Part shown: positions 673 to 63,087 of the stretch, piece by piece
How the letters are laid out: every line of letters begins with the position of its first letter
Position numbering within the stretch: the first letter of the stretch is position 1
Assembly (NCBI GenBank): GCA_001805105.1
Contig: MHEE01000013.1
Coordinates: forward strand, 23,826-87,825
DNA from: Nitrospirae bacterium GWF2_44_13
GTDB taxonomy: Bacteria > Nitrospirota > Thermodesulfovibrionia > Thermodesulfovibrionales > UBA1546
Direction: 5' to 3'
DNA: 64,000 bases
Notes under the pieces: generated by a model
Seen by the model: only the letters and a program-made list of their open reading frames with translations
Databases searched by the model: none
What the model was told of the DNA's origin: nothing
Translations under genes and position numbers: made by a program

Positions 673-1644
673 ATGAAACCGACTTTTCATCACAGGCCCA
701 TAAACAGCCCCTTTGACGACCCTTGCGTATATGTCAGGGTGCTCAGGGAGAAACGGGCACTTCTATTTGACCTTGGCTATACAAACAGATTAAGACCAAA
801 CGACATCCAGAAAATAACAGACGTCTTTGTAACACATACTCATATAGACCATTTCATAGGTTTTGACAGTCTTTTAAGAGCGCTCCTGAGAAGAGAGGCT
901 CCACTAAGGATATTCGGGCCATCCAGCATCATAGAGTGCATTGAAGGAAAGCTTCATGGATACACGTGGAACCTTATAAAAGAGTACCCGCTAAAAATAG
1001 AGGCCTTCGGCATAAATGAAGACCATATCAGCCATGCAGGTTTTTATGCGGAGAATTGTTTTAACAAAACAGATTACGGCGAAAAACCATTTGACGGGAC
1101 ATTATTAAAAGAAGGATATTTTGAGGTTAAAGCAGCGTGCCTCACGCATCAGATGCCATGCCTCGGCTTTTCTCTTGAAGAGGATTTTCATATAAACATT
1201 GATAAGGCAGCGCTGAACAGGCTGGCGCTTCCTGTAGGGCCATGGCTTTCAGAATTTAAAAGGGCTGTCAGAGAGAATGCAGGGGGGGACACAGAATTTA
1301 AAATATCAGGCAGAATATATGCCAAAAAAGAACTCATGGAAATCGCGATAATAACAGAGGGGCAAAAGATATCCTACGTTGCTGATTCCTCAATGGATGA
1401 GGAGAATATAAGAAAAATAATAACCCTCGTTAAAGATTCCGATACTCTTTATTGCGAGGCTTACTTTCTTGAGGAAGACATGGAAAGGGCTATAGAGAGG
1501 CATCACCTCACTGCAAAAACCGCAGGAAGGATAGCGAGAGAGGCAGGCGTTAAAAACCTTGTTGTCATGCACTTTTCTCCGAAATACAGGGAATGCCCTG
1601 ACGCGCCTGAAAAAGAAGCGCTGATGGAATATAATAAAGAATAA
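673..1644 (+). CDS. MBL-fold metallo-hydrolase, RNase Z/ElaC-like
   Basis: ORF track, 323 aa. HTHIDH (HxHxDH) metallo-beta-lactamase motif, and a C-terminal VVMHFSPKY block as in RNase Z-like proteins. Confidence 0.7.
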   Translation: MKPTFHHRPINSPFDDPCVYVRVLREKRALLFDLGYTNRLRPNDIQKITDVFVTHTHIDHFIGFDSLLRALLRREAPLRIFGPSSIIECIEGKLHGYTWNLIKEYPLKIEAFGINEDHISHAGFYAENCFNKTDYGEKPFDGTLLKEGYFEVKAACLTHQMPCLGFSLEEDFHINIDKAALNRLALPVGPWLSEFKRAVRENAGGDTEFKISGRIYAKKELMEIAIITEGQKISYVADSSMDEENIRKIITLVKDSDTLYCEAYFLEEDMERAIERHHLTAKTAGRIAREAGVKNLVVMHFSPKYRECPDAPEKEALMEYNKE

Positions 1645-1715
1645 GTTAAAAGTTTAAAATTTAAAATTTCAGATAGTCTTTAACTCTTAACTCCTAACTT
1701 TTAACTCTAAACTTG
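1645..1715. repeat. inverted heptanucleotide arrays (AAAGTTN units, then their complement TTAACTC/CTAACTT units)
   Basis: Read directly: GTTAAAA GTTTAAA ATTTAAA ATTTC..., then TTTAACT CTTAACT CCTAACT TTTAACT CTAAACT. GTTAAAAGTT (1645-1654) is complementary to AACTTTTAAC (1696-1705). Confidence 0.8.
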
Positions 1716-9190: not shown

Positions 9191-10084
9191 GTGAAGATTA
9201 ATTTTACAAAGATGCACGGCCTCGGCAATGACTTCATCTTAATTGACTGCATTACGCAGAAGTTAAAAGTTAAAAGTGAAGAGTTAAAAGTTCTAAGCAA
9301 AAAACTCTGCCACAGGCGGTTCGGCATAGGCTCTGACCAGTTACTCCTGCTTTATCCGTCCGGAACCGCTGATTTCAGGATGCGAATATTTAACGCTGAT
9401 GGCAGCGAGGTGGAGATGTGCGGCAACGGCATAAGATGCCTTGCTAAATATATCTGGAGCAGACGGTTATCCGGAAAGGCCCTTCTTAATATTGAAACCT
9501 TGGCAGGCCTAATAAGGCCTCAGAAAAAAGGCAAACTGGTAAGAGTTGATATGGGAGAACCGTTTTTTGAGCCTGAGAAAATACCCATAAAGATACAGGA
9601 TACACGATACGGGATACAGGATTATCGTGCATCATACATCACGAATCATGCATCACGACCAATCGTTGACTATCCCATAAGGATTGAAGACAGGGAGTTT
9701 AAATTAACCTGTGTTTCAATGGGTAATCCTCATGCTGTAATAGTTGTTGACAACGTTATGGCTTTCCCTGTAATTTATTACGGGCCCTTGCTTGAAATGC
9801 ATGAGATTTTCCCTAAAAGAACTAACGTGGAATTCATAGAGATATTAAATCCCTCGGAAATAAAAATGAGAGTGTGGGAAAGAGGCGCAGGCGAGACAAT
9901 GGCATGCGGCACAGGAGCATCTGCCGCTGCTGTCGCATCCAGCCTTAAAGGGCTTTCAAAGAAGAATGTTACAGTGCATCTCACAGGGGGAGATTTGCTT
10001 GTTGAGTGGGCAAAAGACAATCATGTTTATATGACAGGTACTGCAGAGGAAGTATTTACAGGGGAGATAAGTATTAAATTATAG
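9191..10084 (+). CDS. dapF: diaminopimelate epimerase
   Basis: ORF track, 297 aa. MHGLGNDF, NADGSEVEMCGNG and ACGTGA catalytic Cys blocks. GTG start. Confidence 0.95.
   Translation: MKINFTKMHGLGNDFILIDCITQKLKVKSEELKVLSKKLCHRRFGIGSDQLLLLYPSGTADFRMRIFNADGSEVEMCGNGIRCLAKYIWSRRLSGKALLNIETLAGLIRPQKKGKLVRVDMGEPFFEPEKIPIKIQDTRYGIQDYRASYITNHASRPIVDYPIRIEDREFKLTCVSMGNPHAVIVVDNVMAFPVIYYGPLLEMHEIFPKRTNVEFIEILNPSEIKMRVWERGAGETMACGTGASAAAVASSLKGLSKKNVTVHLTGGDLLVEWAKDNHVYMTGTAEEVFTGEISIKL
9258..9299. repeat. in-frame heptanucleotide array inside dapF (AGAAGTT AAAAGTT AAAAGTG AAGAGTT AAAAGTT CTAAGCA)
   Basis: Read directly. Encodes QKLKVKSEELKVLSKK. Confidence 0.8.
9592..9661. repeat. in-frame heptanucleotide array inside dapF (GATACAG GATACAC GATACGG GATACAG GATTATC GTGCATC ATACATC ACGAATC ATGCATC ACGACCA)
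   Basis: Read directly. Encodes IQDTRYGIQDYRASYITNHASRP, between the conserved MGEPFFEP and VSMGNPH blocks. Confidence 0.85.
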
Positions 10085-27696: not shown

Positions 27697-30234
27697 TTGT
27701 ACGAAAGATATGACCCCAAAAAAGTTGAGCTGAAATGGCAGAAGTACTGGGCTGAGAAAAATATTTTTAAAACAGAACCCGATGCTTCAAAAAAGAAATT
27801 CTACTGCCTTGAAATGTTCCCCTACCCTTCAGGGAAAATACACATGGGCCATGTCAGAAATTATGCAATCGGCGACGTAATAGCAAGATACAAGAGGATG
27901 AGAGGGTTCAATGTCATCCATCCGATGGGATGGGATGCATTTGGAATGCCTGCTGAGAACGCCGCGATAAAAGAGGGAATCCACCCTGCAAAATGGACCT
28001 ACGAAAATATCACCTACATGAAAAAACAGCTTAATCAGTTGGGGCTCAGCTATGACTGGGACAGAGAGGTTACAACATGCAGCCCTGATTACTACAAGTG
28101 GAATCAGTGGTTCTTCCTGAAGATGTATGAGAAGGGGATTGCATACAGGAAATCATCATTTGTGAACTGGTGCCCTTCATGCATGACTGTTCTTGCAAAT
28201 GAGCAGGTTATTGACAATGGATGCTGGAGATGCGATACAGCGGTAATCAAGAAAGAGTTGGAGCAGTGGTTTTTTCGTATTACGCATTATGCAAAAGACC
28301 TCCTGAAGGCGTGTGATGAGCTTAAGGGCTGGCCTGAAAAAGTTATCTTAATGCAAAAGAACTGGATTGGAAAGAGCGAGGGGCTTGAGGCTGATTTCAA
28401 AGTTGCAGGAAGGGACGAAAGAATCCGTATATTCACTACAAGGGCCGACACTTTATTTGGAGCCACATTTGTATGCCTTGCGCCTACACACCCTTTATCA
28501 GAAAAACTCGTTGTTGATAAAGAAGCTCTTAAGAAGGTCAAGGAACACTACGGCAAAGAAGATGAAAAAATTGGGCTCTTTACAGGACACTACGCAACCA
28601 ATCCCGCGAATGATGAGAAGATTCCAATTTATATAGCAAACTTCGTTCTGATGGAATACGGCACAGGAGCAATAATGTCCGTTCCTGCTCATGACCAACG
28701 GGATTTTGAATTTGCAAAAAAGTACAATCTGCCAATACGGGTGGTAATAGAACCAGAGCAGAAGTCAAAACTTACCGAAGCGTACGAAGATGAAGGCATT
28801 CTTGTTGATTCAAATTCTTTTAGCAAGCTAAGAAGTGATGTTGCAAGAATAGAGATAGCAAAGCACATAGAGAAAAAAGGCTTAGGCAAGAGGGTAATAA
28901 ATTACAAGCTCCGTGACTGGGGAATATCAAGGCAGAGATACTGGGGAACGCCGATACCGATAATTTATTGCGAGAAATGCGGTGTTGTTCCAGTCCCTGA
29001 ACAAGAACTGCCGGTAATCCTTCCAGAGGATGTGAAATTCACAGGCACAGGCGGGTCACCACTTGCAGAGTCAGAAAAATTTGTAAATACAATTTGTCCA
29101 AAATGCAAAGGCAAGGCAAGGCGAGAGACTGATACAATGGACACATTTGTTGATTCATCATGGTATTTCATTGCATATTGCGTTGACAATGGAAAGATTA
29201 ATTTCCAATCCCTAACCCCCAATCCCCAATCCCCAATAAGTTACTGGATGCCTGTTGACCAGTATGTCGGCGGTGTTGAACACGCAGTGCTTCATCTCCT
29301 CTATTCAAGATTTTTTACCCGTGTTATAAAAGACCTTGGAATCATTAACTCTCCGGAGCCTTTCACAAACCTTCTCACGCAGGGAATGGTATGTAAAGAA
29401 ACGTTGAAATGTCCTGAGCATGGCTGGCTCTTACCTGAAGATGTTAAGGATGAGAAGTGCATAAAATGCGGAAAGGCTGTTGACATAGGACGGGTTGAAA
29501 AGATGTCAAAATCAAAAAAGAATGTCATTGACCCTGACCATCTTATAAACAGATACGGGGCAGACACATCAAGGCTCTTTTCGCTCTTTGCTGCGCCGCC
29601 TGAAAGAGACCTTGAATGGTCAGACCAGGGGGTTGAGGGTGCATACAGATTCCTGAATAGGATATGGGGACTCTTATATAAAAATAAATTCAAAATTCAA
29701 AATTCAAAATTCAAAATTGAGGAGCTATCAAGCTATCAGCCATCAGCCGTGCGCCTTCTACGAAAAACACATCAGACCATAAAGCGGGTTACAAACGACA
29801 TGGAGCGCGAATACCACTTCAATACAGCGATTGCAGCGCTCATGGAGCTTGTGAATGATCTATGTTCGTTTGAGCCGAAATCAGACGACGACTGGAAAGT
29901 ATTCAGATTCGGCATTGAAGCGCTTCTGCTTTTGCTTTCTCCATTTTCTCCGCACATATCGGAAGAACTGTGGGAATCTATAGGCAACAAAAAAGGCATA
30001 CTTGAACAGAAATGGCCTTTATGGGATGAGAATATCGCAAAAGAAGAAGAAATAGAACTCGTTATTCAGATTAACGGCAAAGTAAAGGCAAAGATTATGA
30101 TAGCTGCGGGGCAGGCGGACGATGAAGTCAGGGGGAAAGCTCTTGGCGAACCCAGGATACAGGAAATTATAAAGGGGAAAACACTGAAAAAAGTCTTTAT
30201 TGTTAAAGGCAAACTTGTTAACATAGTAATATGA
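27697..30234 (+). CDS. leuS: leucine--tRNA ligase
   Basis: ORF track, 845 aa. HMGH and KMSKS class I motifs and a CP1 editing domain. TTG start according to the ORF track. Confidence 0.97.
29203..29237. repeat. in-frame heptanucleotide array inside leuS (TTCCAAT CCCTAAC CCCCAAT CCCCAAT CCCCAAT)
   Basis: Read directly. Encodes [12 protein letters not shown], between [10 protein letters not shown] and YWMPVDQY. Confidence 0.85.
29681..29751. repeat. in-frame heptanucleotide arrays inside leuS (AAAATAA ATTCAAA x4 ATTGAGG, then AGCTATCA AGCTATC AGCCATC AGCCGTG)
   Basis: Read directly. Encodes [24 protein letters not shown]. Confidence 0.85.
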
Positions 30235-30239
30235 CAAGA

Positions 30240-30740
30240 ATGAAAGTTAAAAGTTTTATGTTACTGTCTACTGTCTACTGTCTACTGTTTACTCTCTCCA
30301 GCTGCGGTTATACGCTGCAGGGCAGAGACACGCTGCCCTTTACCTCTGTCAAAATAGGCAGGATTGAAAACAAAACATTTGAACCGAAATTGGAAGATAA
30401 ATTCCAGAAAGCGCTTGCTGATGAACTCATAAGAAACGGAATAATGATTTCAAATAGCGCAAAACATATAATAAACGGCACTATAGATGACCTGAAGCTA
30501 AGCCCCCTCGCAGAAAAAGAAGGCGTAGCATCCGAATATCAGGTAATTATAAAAGCCAAATTTTTTCTTACATCCCCCGACGGGAAGGTCAAAGAGTTAA
30601 GAAACACAGGAGTTTTTATTGTATCTTTTCCAGGTTCGGGCAATATAGAAAGCTTAGTCGCGGCAAAAGAGCAGGCAACAGAAACTGCTATGAGAAATCT
30701 GGCTTCTGAGATACGTGCCGGAATAGTCTATGGCATGTAG
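30240..30740 (+). CDS. lptE: LPS-assembly lipoprotein LptE
   Basis: ORF track. Lipoprotein signal peptide with lipobox LSSC followed by GYTLQGR. Conserved leuS-lptE-holA gene order. Start (30231 or 30240) is uncertain. Confidence 0.7.
   Translation: MKVKSFMLLSTVYCLLFTLSSCGYTLQGRDTLPFTSVKIGRIENKTFEPKLEDKFQKALADELIRNGIMISNSAKHIINGTIDDLKLSPLAEKEGVASEYQVIIKAKFFLTSPDGKVKELRNTGVFIVSFPGSGNIESLVAAKEQATETAMRNLASEIRAGIVYGM
30241..30296. repeat. heptanucleotide array forming the lptE signal-peptide coding region (TGAAAGT TAAAAGT TTTATGT TACTGTC x3 TACTGTT TACTCTC)
   Basis: Read directly. Translates to KVKSFMLLSTVYCLLFTL. Confidence 0.85.
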
Positions 30741-38385: not shown

Positions 38386-38399
38386 TGACTCCTCCTCTT

Positions 38400-38469
38400 G
38401 TTATAAGTTATAAGTTTAAAGTTAGAAGTTTTTGAACTTTTCACTTTTCACTTTTAACTCTCAACTCCC
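38400..38469. repeat. inverted heptanucleotide arrays filling the qmoB-qmoC intercistronic spacer
   Basis: Read directly: GTTATAA GTTATAA GTTTAAA GTTAGAA GTTTTTG, then AACTTTT CACTTTT CACTTTT AACTCTC AACTCCC. The two arms are approximately complementary. Confidence 0.85.
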
Positions 38470-53545: not shown

Positions 53546-54412
53546 CTATAATGCGCGTACTGTAACAATCCTCTCTATGCCTGCATAGTCCTTAATAACA
53601 GAGATATTCCGGAAACCGTTCTGCATAGCGATTTCTGAGACTTCCGCTGCCTGTCCTTCTCCGATTTCAAGAAAGACAACTCCGTTGAGCATCAGGTATT
53701 TGCGCGCCTCCGAAAGTATTGTCCTGTAATAATTGAGCCCATCCTCGCCGCCGTCAAGCGCATTCCTCGGCTCCCACTTCTTTATCTCGGGCTGAAGATT
53801 CGCTATGTCACTGCTTCTGATATATGGAGGGTTTGAGACAATCATATTAAAAGTGACGGGTGACGGGTGACGAGTCACAAGTTGCTTTAAAGGCTCAAAC
53901 AGCGAGCCCTTAAGAAATGTTACATTCCTTATATCGTTAAGCCTTGCATTCTCATTTGCGTACCTTATCGCATCTTTTGATATGTCAGTCCCGTATACCT
54001 CGGCGTCAGGGAAACGCTTTGCTATCGCAAGCGCAAGGCATCCGCTCCCTGTGCAGAGGTCAAGGACTGTGAACTGTGAACTGTGGACTGTGAACTGCTT
54101 TATAACTTCTTCTGCCAGTAATTCCGTCTCAGGCCTCGGAATAAGAACGCCTTTGCCAACCTTTATCTTTAATCCGTAAAATTCCACATATCCGAGGATA
54201 TACTGAAGCGGCTCTCTCTGAGCGCACCTCCGAAGAACAACATCGACGTCCTTTATATTTTTTTCAGAAAGAACAGGGTTATCTCTGTAAAGCGCCGTCT
54301 TGTCTATGCCGAGACAATGAGTAACAATAATTTCCGATTCTTTATGAGCATCGTCAATGCCGCAATTTTCAAGAAACGCTGTGATCTCTTTTATTTTCTC
54401 AAGAGCCTTCAT
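53546..54412 (-). CDS. prmC: peptide chain release factor N5-glutamine methyltransferase
   Basis: ORF track, 288 aa. LDLCTGSGCLA SAM motif and IVSNPPYI catalytic motif. Confidence 0.9.
   Translation of the reverse strand: MKALEKIKEITAFLENCGIDDAHKESEIIVTHCLGIDKTALYRDNPVLSEKNIKDVDVVLRRCAQREPLQYILGYVEFYGLKIKVGKGVLIPRPETELLAEEVIKQFTVHSSQFTVLDLCTGSGCLALAIAKRFPDAEVYGTDISKDAIRYANENARLNDIRNVTFLKGSLFEPLKQLVTRHPSPVTFNMIVSNPPYIRSSDIANLQPEIKKWEPRNALDGGEDGLNYYRTILSEARKYLMLNGVVFLEIGEGQAAEVSEIAMQNGFRNISVIKDYAGIERIVTVRAL
53853..53880. repeat. in-frame heptanucleotide array inside prmC (GTGACGG GTGACGG GTGACGA GTCACAA)
   Basis: Read directly. On the coding (minus) strand it encodes LVTRHPSPVT just before NMIVSNPPY. 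Confidence 0.85.
54065..54099. repeat. in-frame heptanucleotide array inside prmC (GACTGTG AACTGTG AACTGTG GACTGTG AACTGCT)
   Basis: Read directly. Encodes QFTVHSSQFTV immediately before LDLCTGSG. Confidence 0.85.
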
Positions 54413-54542
54413 GGTATTTATTACTATATCATTAATAAAGCACAGGAAGGCGAAATTTGAAGATCAGCCTGGAGCTGGCGTAGGATGCAAACAGAGTTCC
54501 GACAGACCTTATTTCTATCTCCCTGCTGAGCCTGAAATGTTC

Positions 54543-54572
54543 TTGTCACTGATTAGTTTATTATGATATTAT
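54543..54572 (+). promoter_or_regulatory. sigma70-like promoter TTGTCA-N18-TATTAT upstream of the DsrE-like gene
   Basis: Read directly. Same -35 hexamer and spacing as the promoters at 25262 and 27634. Confidence 0.4.
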
Positions 54573-54649
54573 TTGACCCATGAAGGGGAAAAGACCCCAA
54601 GAATATAGTAATTGTTAAAAGAAAAATAAATACATAAGGAGTATTCAAC

Positions 54650-54970
54650 ATGAAAATTGGAGTGCTTATTTCGAGCGATGATGCAGAAACCTGCTGGAAT
54701 GCATTAAGATATGCTAATTTCTGTATTGGACAAAAAGACGAAGTGAAAGTCTTTCTTACAGGAAAAGGTGTTGAATACCAACAGATCAGCACCGATAAGT
54801 TCAACACCATTGAGCAAGCCGCTAAATTTCTACAAACTGGCGGGAAGATTTTCGCTTGTGGAACATGCATCAAATCCCGTTCACAAGAAGGCTCTGAAAT
54901 GTGTCCAATTTCAACAATGAAGGACATGTATGAGATAATAAAAGAAAGTGACAAGATTATTACTTTTTAA
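54650..54970 (+). CDS. DsrE/DsrF-like family protein
   Basis: ORF track, 106 aa. MKIGVLISS...VKVFLTGKGV...IFACGTC pattern of the DsrE/YchN fold. AAGGAG RBS. Confidence 0.7.
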   Translation: MKIGVLISSDDAETCWNALRYANFCIGQKDEVKVFLTGKGVEYQQISTDKFNTIEQAAKFLQTGGKIFACGTCIKSRSQEGSEMCPISTMKDMYEIIKESDKIITF

Positions 54971-55099
54971 CAAGTCAATACAGCTGACCGTCGCTCCGCT
55001 CCGGCAGCTGATTTCGGATGTTCGGAGGAAAAGTGGTACCCTCCAAGAAATAGTAATGCCACGTAACCAGTTGAAAAGAAATACACAAGGAGAGCAATA

Positions 55100-55915
55100 A
55101 TGAATAAAACGATATTCATCACGGGTGCCAGTAGTGGCATCGGGAAAATCACCGCCAAGTACTTCCAGGAAAAAGGCTGGAACGTGGTGGCTACTATGCG
55201 CACCCCTGAAAAGGAAGAAGAACTGACTCTGCTGGATAATGTTCTGGTGACGCGACTTGATGTGCGGGATCCGGCTTCGATTAAAGGCGCCGTTAGTGCA
55301 GGCATTGAAAAATTTGGCAAGATCGATGTCCTACTTAACAACGCAGGCTATGGGGCCTATGGGCCGTTGGAAGCCACCCCGATGGAAAAGATTCGGCGTC
55401 AATTCGACGTAAACGTCATTGGCCTGATGGAAACCATCAAAGCCGTCTTGCCGCATTTCCGCATAAACAAGGACGGCATCATCATCAACATCTCGTCCAT
55501 TGGCGGCAAGATGACCTTTCCCTTAGGCTCGCTATATCACGGCTCGAAATTTGCCGTAGAGGGCCTGTCGGAAGCCTTGAGTTTTGAGATGGAGGCCATT
55601 GGGGTCAAGGTAAAGATCGTCGAACCCGGCATGATCAAAACCGATTTTGGCGGCCGTTCCTTTGACTTCAACAACGATGAGAACATGGTTGAGTATCAAG
55701 AAACGATCTCAAAGCTTTTTGCAGCCTTTAGCGTGGTAACTGAAACGGCATCTGATCCAATCGTTGTAGCAGAAGTCATCTACAAAGCTGTAACCGATGG
55801 CTCCGACCAGCTACGCTACACAGCAGGGGAAGATGCAAAAGCTATTGTGGCGCAGCGAAAGCAACTCAGCGATGCTGAGTTCATAGGCGGAATTAAGGCA
55901 CAGTTTGGCCTATGA
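55100..55915 (+). CDS. short-chain dehydrogenase/reductase (classical SDR)
   Basis: ORF track, 271 aa. TGASSGIG, NNAG, and the S...YxxxK (YHGSK) catalytic motif. Ile codons are mostly ATC/ATT, unlike the ATA-rich neighbours. Confidence 0.9.
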   Translation: MNKTIFITGASSGIGKITAKYFQEKGWNVVATMRTPEKEEELTLLDNVLVTRLDVRDPASIKGAVSAGIEKFGKIDVLLNNAGYGAYGPLEATPMEKIRRQFDVNVIGLMETIKAVLPHFRINKDGIIINISSIGGKMTFPLGSLYHGSKFAVEGLSEALSFEMEAIGVKVKIVEPGMIKTDFGGRSFDFNNDENMVEYQETISKLFAAFSVVTETASDPIVVAEVIYKAVTDGSDQLRYTAGEDAKAIVAQRKQLSDAEFIGGIKAQFGL

Positions 55916-56116
55916 ACTGAAACCTGAACAACCGTATTGAGACCAACGCCGAGAAGCGCGGTGGCGCTACGCGGCAAGGTCATTGGCGGCGGCATCGCAT
56001 GCTTTATGTTTTATTTCTTGTGGTCTCCTCCCCCAAAGCATAAAGGCTTTTCTGATCGTGACCGGCTCGAAGCAACCTCACGAGCTATGGGTGGGAGGAG
56101 TGCACCAAACAAAAAA

Positions 56117-56141
56117 GCCCCCGCTTCAAAAAAGCGGGGGC
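56117..56141 (-). terminator. rho-independent terminator of the rpoA-rplQ operon
   Basis: GCCCCCGC/GCGGGGGC stem with a 9-nt loop. On the minus strand it is followed by CTTTTTTG. About 30 nt after the rplQ stop. Confidence 0.85.
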
Positions 56142-56170
56142 TTTCAATTAACTTTATTCAAAACTAAAGA

Positions 56171-56602
56171 TTACTTTTTCCCTTCCTTTTTCTCTTCTTC
56201 TTTCTTCTCTGCCTTCGCCTTCTTCACTTTCGGCTTCTTTATGCTCTCGTAGTCTATGAATTCAAGAACAGCCATCGGCGCCCCGTCATTAACCCTGTTC
56301 CTTGTCTGCACTAGTCTCAGATACCCGCCGTTTCTGCCGCTGAACCTCGGCGCTATCTCGCTGAACAACTTTGCCACAACAGCCCTGTTCGGAACATATG
56401 AAAGCACAAGGCGTTTTGAATGGAGGTCGCCTTTTATCCCCATGGTTACAATTTTCTCAGCAATCACTTTTGCAGCCTTTGCCTTTGCAAGTGTTGTCTC
56501 TATCCTCTGATACTCTAATAACGAAGAGACTATCCCTTTCAGGAGCGCCTTCCTCTGGTTTGCCGTTCTTCCGAATAGCCTTCCGCTAACTTTATGACGC
56601 AT
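56171..56602 (-). CDS. rplQ: 50S ribosomal protein L17
   Basis: ORF track, 143 aa. MRHKVSGRLFGR...TTLAKAK; Lys/Glu-rich tail. Confidence 0.97.
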   Translation of the reverse strand: MRHKVSGRLFGRTANQRKALLKGIVSSLLEYQRIETTLAKAKAAKVIAEKIVTMGIKGDLHSKRLVLSYVPNRAVVAKLFSEIAPRFSGRNGGYLRLVQTRNRVNDGAPMAVLEFIDYESIKKPKVKKAKAEKKEEEKKEGKK

Positions 56603-62573: not shown

Positions 62574-62664
62574 AAAAGTTCAAAGTTGAAAGTTCAAAGT
62601 TGACAATTAACAATTCAAAATGAAGGATTCCATAATTTTTCATTTTGCTTTTTGAATTTTGCAT
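62574..62664. repeat. inverted heptanucleotide arrays filling the rplR-rpsE spacer
   Basis: Read directly: AAAAGTT CAAAGTT GAAAGTT CAAAGTT GACAATT AACAATT CAAAATG ... TTTTCAT TTTGCTT TTTGAAT TTTGCAT TTTAAAA. CAAAATGA pairs with TCATTTTG. Confidence 0.85.
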
Positions 62665-62665
62665 T

Positions 62666-63034
62666 TTAAAACTCAAGTCCGTTTTCTCTGGCAGCATCAG
62701 CTAAGGCCTTAACCCTGCCATGATAAAGATAGCCGCCCCTGTCAAAAACAACCCTCTTTATCCCCTTTTTTAATGCCTTCTTGGCTATGAGCTCGCCAAC
62801 TTGCTTTGCCGCACTAATATTGCCCTTTCCGGACTTCTTATCTTTACCTTTCAGCTCTTTATCAAGGCTTGATGCGGCAGCAATAGTGCTGCCCTTGAAA
62901 TCATCTATAATCTGTGCATACATATGTGACAGGCTCCTGTAAACTGACAGCCTCGGCCTCTCAGTTGTGCCCGCAACTTTTTTCCTTATTCTTTCATGCC
63001 TTCTTGTTCTTGCGTCCTTTATCTCTGCTGCCAA
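62666..63034 (-). CDS. rplR: 50S ribosomal protein L18
   Basis: ORF track, 122 aa. ...[18 protein letters not shown]...[17 protein letters not shown]. Confidence 0.97.
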
Positions 63035-63052: not shown

Positions 63053-63087
63053 ATTTTAAAATTCATTAATTTTGAATTTTGAATTTA
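63053..63087. repeat. heptanucleotide array (NAATTTT units) in the rplF-rplR spacer
   Basis: Read directly: ATTTTAA AATTCAT TAATTTT GAATTTT GAATTTA. Runs from the rplF stop codon towards the rplR RBS. Confidence 0.65.

What the first reader, a model, noticed from the sequence alone, without database searches (positions are those of the whole stretch)
53853..54099. Two heptamer arrays flanking the catalytic motifs of prmC
GTGACGG GTGACGG GTGACGA GTCACAA (53853-53880) encodes LVTRHPSPVT immediately N-terminal to the NPPY catalytic loop (NMIVSNPPY). GACTGTG AACTGTG AACTGTG GACTGTG AACTGCT (54065-54099) encodes QFTVHSSQFTV immediately N-terminal to the SAM-binding LDLCTGSG. A single-unit (7-nt) slippage would frameshift the gene. 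The arrays must therefore be stabilised (the units are degenerate), or they change only in multiples of three units. The proximity to both active-site motifs makes functional tolerance notable.
Basis: partly seen in the sequence, partly recalled or inferred. Interest (0 to 1): 0.65.

Follow-up and report, generated by a model that had tools for sequence, protein, structure and literature searches.

The report
Heptamer DNA repeats inside prmC
Two short runs of a repeated 7-base unit really do sit inside the release-factor methyltransferase gene, but they are two of many such runs scattered through this groundwater Nitrospirota genome. They occupy variable helix-end and loop segments of the enzyme and are not a switch or a special feature of its active site.

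Summary
They are not peculiar to prmC. The window holds 14 period-7 arrays, about 22 per 100 kb against 4.6 per 100 kb in outgroup loci. Seven lie in housekeeping genes (dapF, leuS, lptE, prmC); the rest are intergenic.

In an AlphaFold model the arrays encode the end of a helix plus the loop before strands β1 and β4. By Rossmann-fold topology (inferred, no distances measured) that is the edge of the sheet away from the SAM/NPPY pocket. The site-1 linker is 20 aa, exactly the outgroup median, so this array replaces sequence and adds none. Site 2 adds about 5-8 aa.

In related Thermodesulfovibrionales both sites vary strongly in length and sequence, and many variants also show a 7-aa period. 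A change of ±1 or ±2 units truncates the protein. No length variant appears in 24 contigs, and six species keep five units at site 1.

Best reading: period-7 slippage or homogenisation filtered by reading-frame selection, a Nitrospirota counterpart of the heptamer repeats known in cyanobacteria and Beggiatoaceae. Moderate interest.

The parts
53546..54412 (-). prmC/hemK gene, 288 aa (release-factor glutamine-N5 methyltransferase)
   Evidence: ORF. Pfam PrmC_N plus MTS/Methyltransf_31. phmmer to 1sg9/1nv8/2b3t, E 1e-33 to 1e-37. AF2 model pLDDT 86.9; Foldseek top hits 2b3t_A, 1nv8, 1t43. 100% identical to an NCBI Nitrospirae MAG protein.
54065..54099 (-). Site-1 heptamer array, 5 units. Coding strand CAGTTCA CAGTCCA CAGTTCA CAGTTCA CAGTCCT; encodes QFTVHSSQFTV (aa 106-116)
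   Evidence: In the AF2 model it covers the last 2 residues of helix 94-107, loop 108-114 and the start of β1. The same 5-unit array is present in L171, L172, L173, L176 and L177.
54041..54064 (-). Motif I (SAM-binding loop) LDLCTGSG, aa 117-124
   Evidence: Read directly. D118, L119, C120, G122, S123 and G124 are invariant in 40 orthologues.
53853..53880 (-). Site-2 heptamer array, 4 units. Coding strand (C)TTGTGA CTCGTCA CCCGTCA CCCGTCA C; encodes LVTRHPSPVT (aa 178-187)
   Evidence: Covers the end of helix 173-181 and loop 182-187 before β4; the lowest pLDDT block in the catalytic domain, 74. Related arrays CTCGTCA x3-4 occur in L171 and L177.
53822..53833 (-). Motif IV NPPY, aa 194-197 (catalytic loop at the C-terminal end of β4)
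   Evidence: Read directly. N194, P195, P196 and Y197 are invariant in 40 orthologues.
9260..9292 (+). Heptamer array (AAGTTAA-type) inside dapF; encodes KLKVKSEELKV
   Evidence: About +3 aa against solved DapF.
9592..9622 (+). Heptamer array (GATACAG) inside dapF; encodes KIQDTRYGIQD
   Evidence: Lies in a 16-aa insertion relative to solved DapF.
29205..29237 (+). Heptamer array (CCAATCC) inside leuS; encodes [12 protein letters not shown]
   Evidence: About +6 aa against T. thermophilus LeuRS.
29686..29718 (+). Perfect heptamer array (AAATTCA x4.7) inside leuS; encodes [11 protein letters not shown]
   Evidence: Overlies a variable linker with almost no net insertion.
30262..30297 (+). Heptamer array (TACTGTC x5.1) near the N-terminus of lptE; encodes LLSTVYCLLFTLS
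1643..1713 (.). Two adjacent intergenic heptamer arrays in opposite orientation (AAGTTAA-type, then TTAACTC), 10 nt upstream of a tRNA gene
   Evidence: tRNA at 1724-1795.
38400..38459 (.). Two adjacent intergenic heptamer arrays in opposite orientation (GTTATAA, then ACTTTTC)
   Evidence: Together they fold as an imperfect hairpin, z -2.8.
62575..62667 (.). Two intergenic heptamer arrays filling the 105-nt L18-S5 spacer of the ribosomal protein operon
   Evidence: Gene identities.
63068..63086 (.). Intergenic heptamer array (AATTTTG) in the L6-L18 spacer

Best explanation
The two arrays are local instances of a genome-wide class of short heptanucleotide tandem arrays (about 3-5 units, 21-36 nt). 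These arrays pervade this groundwater Thermodesulfovibrionales (Nitrospirota) lineage in both intergenic and coding DNA.

Inferred mechanism: a period-7-biased repeat-generating and homogenising process creates and turns over the arrays everywhere. The most economical candidate is slipped-strand mispairing or short templated re-copying, as proposed for heptamer repeats in other bacteria.

Shown: inside genes, only arrays that meet three conditions are seen.
- The net length change is a multiple of 3 nt.
- The unit has no stop codon in any of the three frames of the coding strand.
- The array lies in a segment whose sequence the protein does not care about.

Because 3 x 7 nt = 21 nt, the translated product has a 7-residue period (QFTVHSS-QFTV; LVTRHPS-PVT).

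In PrmC the tolerated places are the helix end and loop leading into strand β1 and the one leading into β4. By Rossmann-fold topology these emerge on the edge of the sheet opposite the SAM/NPPY pocket, so catalysis should be unaffected (inferred).

The arrays are not switches. They are short and degenerate, their unit number is fixed, and changes that persist keep the frame.
For: Genome-wide and lineage-wide:
- Period-7 arrays run at 21.9 per 100 kb in the window, 18.0 in four close relatives and 17.3 in 21 other Nitrospirota loci, against 4.6 in 958 kb of outgroup loci.
- Only period 7 has a tail beyond 3 copies.
- Seven of the 14 window arrays lie in dapF, leuS, lptE and prmC.

Selection filter:
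- Density is 1.0 per kb in intergenic DNA against 0.12 per kb in coding DNA (P = 3e-4).
- Six of seven coding arrays use units that are stop-free on the coding strand. The seventh avoids a stop through a degenerate unit.
- Changes of ±1 or ±2 units truncate PrmC.

Permissive location:
- AF2 secondary structure places both arrays at a helix end plus a loop.
- The site-1 linker is 20 aa, equal to the outgroup median. The motif I to NPPY distance is 69 aa against a median of 64.
- The T. maritima HemK alignment shows +1 aa at site 1 and +6 aa at site 2.
- In 40 orthologues both sites are hypervariable. Many variants again show a 7-aa period (NSKLQTLNSKLRI, GCRLTADGCKLNI, LLTHNSSLLTF), while all catalytic residues are invariant. 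Orthologue DNA shows different heptamer arrays at the same sites.
- The arrays in leuS and dapF likewise fall in variable or inserted segments.

Stability and turnover:
- Contigs from independent assemblies encode the identical protein and show no indels at the arrays. The protein's 90% identity cluster has a single member.
- Six genomes at 72-80% protein identity all keep 5 units at site 1.
- Five of the six differences between the window and L171 fall at the same unit position (P about 0.002). This indicates concerted change without a change in length.

Precedent: heptamer repeats are over-represented in many bacteria and have been attributed to polymerase slippage (PMC4692102, citing Mrazek 2007). 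TAACTGA arrays of 2-6 copies occur in Beggiatoaceae, cyanobacteria and Bacteroidetes (PMC4679880).
Against: - No slippage event was observed directly. Consensus assemblies hide minority length variants.
- A pure slippage model does not obviously explain the ceiling of about 5 units.
- It does not explain the non-random unit vocabulary: AGT/ACT occurs in 24 of 43 units against 15.6% expected, P = 1.6e-9, and motif information is 5.68 bits against 4.20 ± 0.23 in controls.
- It does not explain the tight clustering. All 14 arrays have a neighbour within 577 nt, matched by 0 of 20,000 random placements.
- It does not explain how a 35-nt array came to occupy the site-1 linker without changing its length.
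- The distance from the active site is inferred from fold topology and DSSP, not measured from coordinates.
Confidence: 0.7

Rival explanations
1. A dedicated, sequence-biased process creates the arrays in bursts, not ordinary replication slippage. Candidates are an enzyme or a very small mobile element. On this view the arrays are selfish or neutral insertions that also serve as landing sites for about 27-nt hairpin elements.
For: - Units share a loose vocabulary (AGT/ACT and TCA/TGA each in 56% of units). It overlaps the TAACTGA/TCAGTTA unit reported in distant phyla (PMC4679880).
- The same unit type (CYGTTCA) occurs at site 1 in some species and at site 2 in others.
- Arrays are clustered and capped at about 5 units.
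- 27-nt hairpins sit inside the fourth unit of the site-2 array in L171 and L003, and another hairpin lies inside an array in L094.
- A Y1 transposase gene lies next to prmC in L175.
- Identical site-1 cassettes occur on distant branches of the backbone tree.
Against: - There are 34 different canonical units among 43 arrays, so no fixed element sequence exists.
- The arrays have no hairpin or terminal repeats (z +1.0 and -0.9).
- No candidate enzyme is encoded near the arrays in the window.
- When mismatches are penalised the copy-number distribution declines broadly, as stepwise growth would predict.
- Clustering could simply reflect where arrays are tolerated.
Confidence: 0.15
2. The array-encoded peptides are selected at the protein level. 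The 7-residue periodic segments would give PrmC, LeuRS and DapF a lineage-specific function or interaction surface.
For: The site-1 cassette LFTVHxSPFTV is kept at the same length in nine orthologues. Both prmC arrays emerge before neighbouring strands β1 and β4, so they could form one surface patch (inferred).
Against: - Equally close orthologues carry unrelated sequences of very different length at the same sites.
- The same kind of array is 8-fold denser in non-coding DNA.
- The peptides differ completely between host proteins.
- The concerted nucleotide change between the window and L171 alters residues (Q/L, S/C, Q/P).
Confidence: 0.07
3. The arrays act at the nucleic-acid level. They would be binding sites for a single-strand-binding regulator (cold-shock or S1-like) that tunes translation or mRNA stability, as proposed for TAACTGA arrays.
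For: Several intergenic arrays abut gene starts or stops. One ends 15 nt upstream of the S5 gene, one lies directly after the L18 stop, and one pair ends 10 nt upstream of a tRNA gene. MacGregor 2015 proposes such a role (PMC4679880). The arrays are unstructured single strands.
Against: The units are highly diverse. Arrays occur in both orientations and in mid-gene positions. The site-1 and site-2 variants in orthologues have unrelated sequences. There is no expression data.
Confidence: 0.05
4. prmC is a phase-variable contingency gene, switched on and off by gain or loss of single heptamer units.
For: A change of ±1 or ±2 units at either array truncates the protein before or within the catalytic domain.
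Against: - The longest perfect tract is 2.9 units.
- The protein is identical in all 24 contigs read, and the ten loci compared show no indel at the arrays.
- The protein's 90% identity cluster holds one sequence.
- Five units are kept in six species.
- The other hosts of such arrays, leuS and dapF, cannot be switched off.
Confidence: 0.03

Closest known systems
Heptanucleotide simple-sequence repeats of bacteria. Examples are cyanobacterial STRR heptamers (Calothrix, Nostoc) and GGGAATC/GGGGAYT arrays of Xanthomonas and Nostoc. Source: PMC4692102 and the Mrazek 2007 and Mazel 1990 work it cites; STRR details are from my own knowledge.
   Same: Head-to-tail 7-nt units. Period 7 is specifically over-represented among longer repeats. 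The arrays are mostly intergenic. Adjacent arrays in inverted orientation occur. Length and sequence differ between related species at the same locus.
   Different: This is a different phylum (Nitrospirota, Thermodesulfovibrionales). The units are very diverse and not G-rich. Arrays are short (no more than about 5 units; cyanobacterial arrays reach tens of units). Half of the arrays in this window are in-frame inside essential housekeeping genes.
TAACTGA direct-repeat arrays of marine Beggiatoaceae, cyanobacteria and some Bacteroidetes (MacGregor 2015, PMC4679880)
   Same: Both have 2-6 copies per array, are scattered through the genome, and include sites beside ribosomal protein genes. The unit read on the other strand (TCAGTTA, rotated to AGTTATC) fits the loose AGTT-containing vocabulary seen here. 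Occasional in-ORF copies are translated as 7-aa repeats.
   Different: In Beggiatoaceae a single unit dominates and sits just upstream of start codons. Here there are 34 unit types in 43 arrays, and neither prmC unit is TAACTGA. The prmC arrays are mid-gene.
Phase-variable contingency loci (tetra- to heptanucleotide repeats in Haemophilus and Neisseria, e.g. PMC2651432)
   Same: A tandem repeat inside an ORF whose unit length is not a multiple of three, so a one-unit change shifts the frame.
   Different: Contingency loci have long perfect tracts, lie in surface or restriction-modification genes, and vary between close isolates. Here the tracts are short and degenerate, the host is a housekeeping gene, and the length is invariant.
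Small dispersed repeats of Nostoc (Elhai et al. 2008, Genome Res 18:1484; recalled from memory, paper not held) and REP/REPIN elements with RAYT Y1 transposases (PMC3116915)
   Same: In relatives, 25-30-nt hairpin elements are found inserted inside heptamer arrays, in frame within prmC. A Y1 transposase gene lies next to prmC in one relative.
   Different: This applies to the relatives, not to the window's prmC. The heptamer arrays themselves have no hairpin. No link between the hairpins and the Y1 gene was tested.

Membership tests
PrmC/HemK release-factor glutamine-N5 methyltransferase | N-terminal helical PrmC_N domain followed by a class I SAM methyltransferase domain | tested here: met
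   Pfam PF17827 (aa 7-74, 53.8 bits against a cut-off of 23.4) plus MTS/Methyltransf_31. AF2 model: helices 3-64, then a Rossmann-type alternation of strands and helices.
PrmC/HemK release-factor glutamine-N5 methyltransferase | Motif I glycine loop and motif IV NPPY | tested here: met
   LDLCTGSG at aa 117-124 and NPPY at aa 194-197, invariant in 40 orthologues.
PrmC/HemK release-factor glutamine-N5 methyltransferase | Fold similarity to solved PrmC/HemK | tested here: met
   Foldseek: 2b3t_A E 7e-25, TM 0.71-0.74; also 1nv8, 1sg9, 1t43. phmmer E about 1e-37.
PrmC/HemK release-factor glutamine-N5 methyltransferase | Genomic association with prfA (RF1) | tested here: inconclusive
   In relatives L171-L175 prfA lies 0.5-1.7 kb upstream of prmC. 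In the window the upstream neighbours are a DsrE-like gene, a short-chain dehydrogenase gene and rplQ.
Bacterial heptanucleotide SSR / STRR-like arrays | Head-to-tail tandem copies of a 7-nt unit | tested here: met
   TRF period 7, 2.9-4.6 copies, 92-100% matches. Sequence read.
Bacterial heptanucleotide SSR / STRR-like arrays | Genome-wide excess of period 7 over neighbouring periods | tested here: met
   on 64 kb plus about 250 kb of relatives. The whole genome was not available.
Bacterial heptanucleotide SSR / STRR-like arrays | Preferentially intergenic | tested here: met
   1.0 per kb intergenic against 0.12 per kb coding.
Bacterial heptanucleotide SSR / STRR-like arrays | Copy number differs between related strains or species | tested here: inconclusive
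   No variation at 99.2-100% identity. Between species the sites differ greatly in content and length, but the shared site-1 allele always has 5 units.
TAACTGA array family (MacGregor 2015) | The unit is TAACTGA and the arrays abut start codons | tested here: not met
   The prmC units are CAGTTCA and CYCGTCA on the coding strand and lie mid-gene. There is only a loose shared AGT/TCA vocabulary.
Phase-variable contingency locus | Long perfect repeat tract with length polymorphism and out-of-frame alleles among close isolates | tested here: not met
   Longest perfect tract 20 nt. The 24 contigs read encode the identical protein, and the ten loci compared have no indel at the arrays. The 90% identity cluster has a single member. 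Read-level data were not available.
REP/REPIN or MITE-like palindromic element | Stable hairpin or terminal inverted repeats | tested here: not met
   Both prmC arrays fold no better than shuffles (z +1.04 and -0.93).

The most novel reading that the evidence does not exclude
A specific molecular machine generates the heptamer arrays of this Nitrospirota clade, and the same or a related machine acts in cyanobacteria, Beggiatoaceae and some Bacteroidetes; generic polymerase slippage is not the source. The machine prefers AGT/TCA-containing heptamers, lays down about 3-5 units at a time in local clusters, and can overwrite existing sequence inside essential genes without changing its length. The arrays then act as preferred landing sites for about 27-nt hairpin elements. 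Together this would be a previously unrecognised system for diversifying protein loops and intergenic spacers.
Probability: 0.12. Interest if true: 0.75.

Novelty: new member of a known kind. Interest (0 to 1): 0.4.

Why it matters
- Heptamer-repeat richness, so far described mainly for cyanobacteria, xanthomonads and giant sulfur bacteria, extends to uncultured groundwater Thermodesulfovibrionales.
- In that clade the arrays routinely live in-frame inside essential enzymes (PrmC, LeuRS, DapF, LptE). They write 7-residue periodic peptides into surface segments.
- For annotators, odd low-complexity stretches and large length differences between close orthologues in this clade can come from a DNA-level process; they need not be errors or new domains.
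- For evolution, prmC in this clade is a natural experiment. The same two or three sites are rewritten again and again, which makes the origin of period-7 repeats testable by comparing genomes.
- The finding does not change what is known about how PrmC works.

Tried and rejected
- Chance or assembly artefact: rejected by shuffles, the period spectrum and ten independent, near-identical contigs.
- Strain-level copy-number variation: searched for in L161-L170 and none found. Consensus contigs cannot show minority alleles.
Close orthologue DNA had to be fetched one protein at a time.
- A characteristic array size of about 4.7 units, suggested by the TRF output: largely a threshold effect. With mismatch-penalised copy numbers the distribution declines broadly. 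Only the ceiling of about 5 units stands.
- Hairpin or REP-like nature of the prmC arrays: rejected.
- Known RNA families: the only Rfam match in the window is a tRNA at 1724-1795.
- G/C-rich hairpin elements of the PPLPPFxKGG type, seen in relatives' prmC: absent from the window apart from one terminator-like hairpin at 56118-56140.
- Mrazek 2007 and Elhai 2008 could not be read. What I say about them comes from a citing paper or from memory.
- A search for papers linking heptamer repeats with Nitrospirota or Thermodesulfovibrio listed none.
Full report
**Observation**

The region was read on both strands. GTGACGG GTGACGG GTGACGA GTCACAA occupies 53853-53880 and GACTGTG AACTGTG AACTGTG GACTGTG AACTGCT occupies 54065-54099, exactly as reported. 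Both lie in a minus-strand ORF, 53546-54412, of 288 aa. On the coding strand the units read CAGTTCA/CAGTCCA at site 1 (QFTVHSSQFTV, aa 106-116) and CTCGTCA/CCCGTCA at site 2 (LVTRHPSPVT, aa 178-187). Because 3 x 7 = 21 nt, each array is read in all three frames in turn and gives a 7-residue period.

**The gene**

- The ORF has the PrmC_N domain and class I methyltransferase domains.
- It matches T. maritima HemK and E. coli PrmC at E about 1e-33 to 1e-37.
- Its AlphaFold model (pLDDT 86.9) has 2b3t_A, 1nv8 and 1t43 as best structural matches.
- It is 100% identical to a protein of a 'Nitrospirae bacterium' MAG. It occurs on contigs of GCA_001803945.1, GCA_001803715.1, GCA_003500245.1 and several groundwater metagenomes.
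- The neighbourhood carries sat and aprBA, so the organism is probably a sulfate-reducing member of the Thermodesulfovibrionales.

**More than chance, and not peculiar to prmC**

- Tandem Repeats Finder lists about 17 period-7 rows among 49 for the window.
- A strict scan found 6 period-7 arrays against 0.0 in shuffles.
- Non-redundant counts give 21.9 period-7 arrays per 100 kb in the window, 18.0 in four close relatives, 17.3 in 21 further Nitrospirota loci and 4.6 in 958 kb of outgroup loci.
- In 315 kb of window plus relatives, only period 7 has a tail of arrays from 2.5 to 5 copies. No array exceeds about 5 units.
- Of the 14 good arrays in the window, seven are inside genes: two in dapF, two in leuS, one near the N-terminus of lptE and two in prmC.
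- The others are intergenic. They include the L6-L18 and L18-S5 spacers of the ribosomal protein operon and a pair 10 nt upstream of a tRNA gene.
- Density is 1.0 per kb in intergenic DNA and 0.12 per kb in coding DNA.

**Where the arrays sit in the protein**

- DSSP on the model gives helix 94-107, loop 108-114 and strand β1 115-118, followed by the glycine loop. It gives helix 173-181, loop 182-187 and strand β4 188-193, followed by NPPY.
- Each array therefore encodes the last turn of a helix and the loop that leads into a strand.
- In class I methyltransferases SAM and substrate bind at the C-terminal ends of β1 and β4 (established knowledge). The array-encoded loops are at the opposite edge of the sheet.
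- The site-1 linker (PRPETE to D118) is 20 aa, equal to the median of 77 outgroup PrmCs (IQR 19-22). The motif I to NPPY distance is 69 aa against a median of 64 (IQR 62-65).
- Against T. maritima HemK, site 1 is +1 aa and site 2 is +6 aa.
- So site 1 replaces family positions at conserved length, and only site 2 is a modest addition.

**Orthologues**

- In 40 orthologues of 55-80% identity all catalytic residues are invariant, while both sites vary greatly in length and sequence.
- Many variants again have a 7-aa period. At site 1 these include NSKLQTLNSKLRI, GCRLTADGCKLNI and DSELQTSNSELRI. At site 2 they include LVTRHSSLVTF, LLTHNSSLLTF and LFTLHSSLFTF.
- A third hot spot, near aa 240, carries an 11-residue PPxPPLxRGGxGGG-type insert in some orthologues.
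- Orthologue DNA confirms different heptamer arrays at the same sites: AGTTAWA and AACTCCA arrays in L174, AGTTACA in L081, CAGTCAT and TGACCAG in L003.
- Relatives such as L006, L008 and L088 have plain loops of canonical length.
- Arrays in leuS and dapF also coincide with variable or inserted segments when aligned to solved structures.

**Stability and turnover**

- Ten strain-level contigs are 99.2-100% identical to the window and have no indel at any array.
- All 24 contigs read encode the identical protein, and the protein's 90% identity cluster has one member.
- The site-1 allele occurs with exactly five units in six genomes (window, L171, L172, L173, L176, L177) whose PrmC proteins are 72-80% identical to the window's.
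- The unit sequence changes in concert. The window has A at unit position 2 in all five units, while the others have T or C there. Five of the six window-versus-L171 differences fall in one phase (P about 0.002).
- Simulated gain or loss of one or two units gives stops at aa 113-135 (site 1) or 184-191 (site 2). Three units keep the frame.

**Mechanism**

The most economical reading has two parts.
- A period-7-biased process of slipped-strand mispairing and homogenisation creates and turns over the arrays. This is the explanation offered in the literature for the general excess of heptamer repeats (PMC4692102, citing Mrazek 2007).
- Selection then removes arrays from coding DNA unless they are in frame, free of stops and placed in tolerant segments.

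Shown here:
- the period-7 excess;
- the depletion of arrays in coding DNA;
- stop-free units on the coding strand in 6 of 7 coding arrays;
- the placement in helix ends and loops;
- length constancy with concerted change.

The slippage itself is inferred.

**What this model leaves unexplained**

- The units are diverse (34 types in 43 arrays) but not random. AGT/ACT and TCA/TGA each occur in 24 of 43 units, against 15.6% and 25.3% expected. An alignment of the units carries 5.68 bits against 4.20 ± 0.23 for random heptamers.
- The arrays are clustered. All 14 have a neighbour within 577 nt, which none of 20,000 random placements matched.
- There is a ceiling near five units.
- Identical site-1 cassettes occur on distant branches of a backbone tree. 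This points to recombination or to chimeric assemblies.
- In relatives, small hairpins of about 27 nt are inserted inside heptamer arrays, and one relative has a Y1 transposase gene beside prmC.

These points keep a dedicated array-generating process alive as a minority reading.

**Comparison with what is known**

- The closest known phenomena are the heptanucleotide repeats of cyanobacteria and xanthomonads (PMC4692102) and the TAACTGA arrays of Beggiatoaceae, cyanobacteria and Bacteroidetes (PMC4679880). Those are short arrays of 2-6 copies, mostly intergenic and sometimes beside ribosomal protein genes.
- The present case differs in phylum, in unit diversity, and in the frequency of in-frame arrays within essential genes.
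- It is not a contingency locus, not a REP-like hairpin, and not a member of the TAACTGA family in the strict sense.
- A full-text search listed no paper linking heptamer repeats with Nitrospirota.

**Verdict**

The feature is a new member of a known kind, with moderate interest (0.4).

Noticed in passing
L171:10531-10620 (site 2 of prmC); L003 site 2; L094 site 1; L085 site 2: In relatives, small palindromic elements are inserted in frame inside heptamer arrays. The two at site 2 (L171 and L003) are both 27 nt (9 aa), differ in sequence, and sit within the fourth unit. The L003 hairpin folds with z -7.7.
   Followed up: partly
L082, L083, L084, L085 site 1; site 3 (near aa 240) of P0024, P0032, P0034, P0055, P0056: G/C-rich hairpin elements (CCCCCC...GGGGGG) are translated in frame as PPLPPFxKGGxGG-like peptides inside prmC of relatives. 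They occur at site 1 and at a third hot spot after 'YL'. No copy was found in the window's prmC.
   Followed up: partly
L175:1367-2299: A 310-aa Y1 transposase gene (PF01797; the IS200/IS605 or RAYT type) lies between prfA and prmC in one close relative. It is a possible mover of the hairpin elements. No link was tested.
   Followed up: no
window 1643-1713 and 38400-38459; also L174:10325-10395: Adjacent heptamer arrays often come as an AGTT-type array followed by an AACT-type array, i.e. in opposite orientation. The 38395-38463 pair folds as a long imperfect hairpin (z -2.8). The 1638-1718 pair does not fold significantly (z -0.8).
   Followed up: partly
window, all 14 period-7 arrays: The arrays fall into six tight clusters (1.6, 9.3-9.6, 29.2-30.3, 38.4, 53.9-54.1 and 62.6-63.1 kb) with no singletons. 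No random placement in 20,000 was as clustered.
   Followed up: partly
A1 alignment and tree: Site-1 and site-2 cassette types occur in nearly all combinations. Identical complex site-1 cassettes appear on distant backbone branches, for example AAESREQLPPHPPLxKGGTKGGVNI in P0042 and P0056. This suggests recombination between populations or chimeric metagenome contigs.
   Followed up: partly
window 54413-56602 compared with L171-L175: In relatives prmC lies downstream of DUF1385 and prfA. In the window the upstream neighbours are a DsrE-like gene, a short-chain dehydrogenase gene and rplQ (the end of the ribosomal protein/rpoA operon). There is therefore a rearrangement breakpoint just upstream of prmC.
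   Followed up: no
window 9631-9658: A period-14 repeat (ATCATACATCACGA x2) directly follows the second dapF heptamer array, inside the same 16-aa insertion relative to solved DapF. It may be a decayed or compound heptamer array.
   Followed up: no
window 56118-56140: A perfect G/C hairpin, CCCCCGCTTCAAAAAAGCGGGGG, lies just beyond the stop codon of rplQ. It is probably an intrinsic terminator or a small REP-like element.
   Followed up: no
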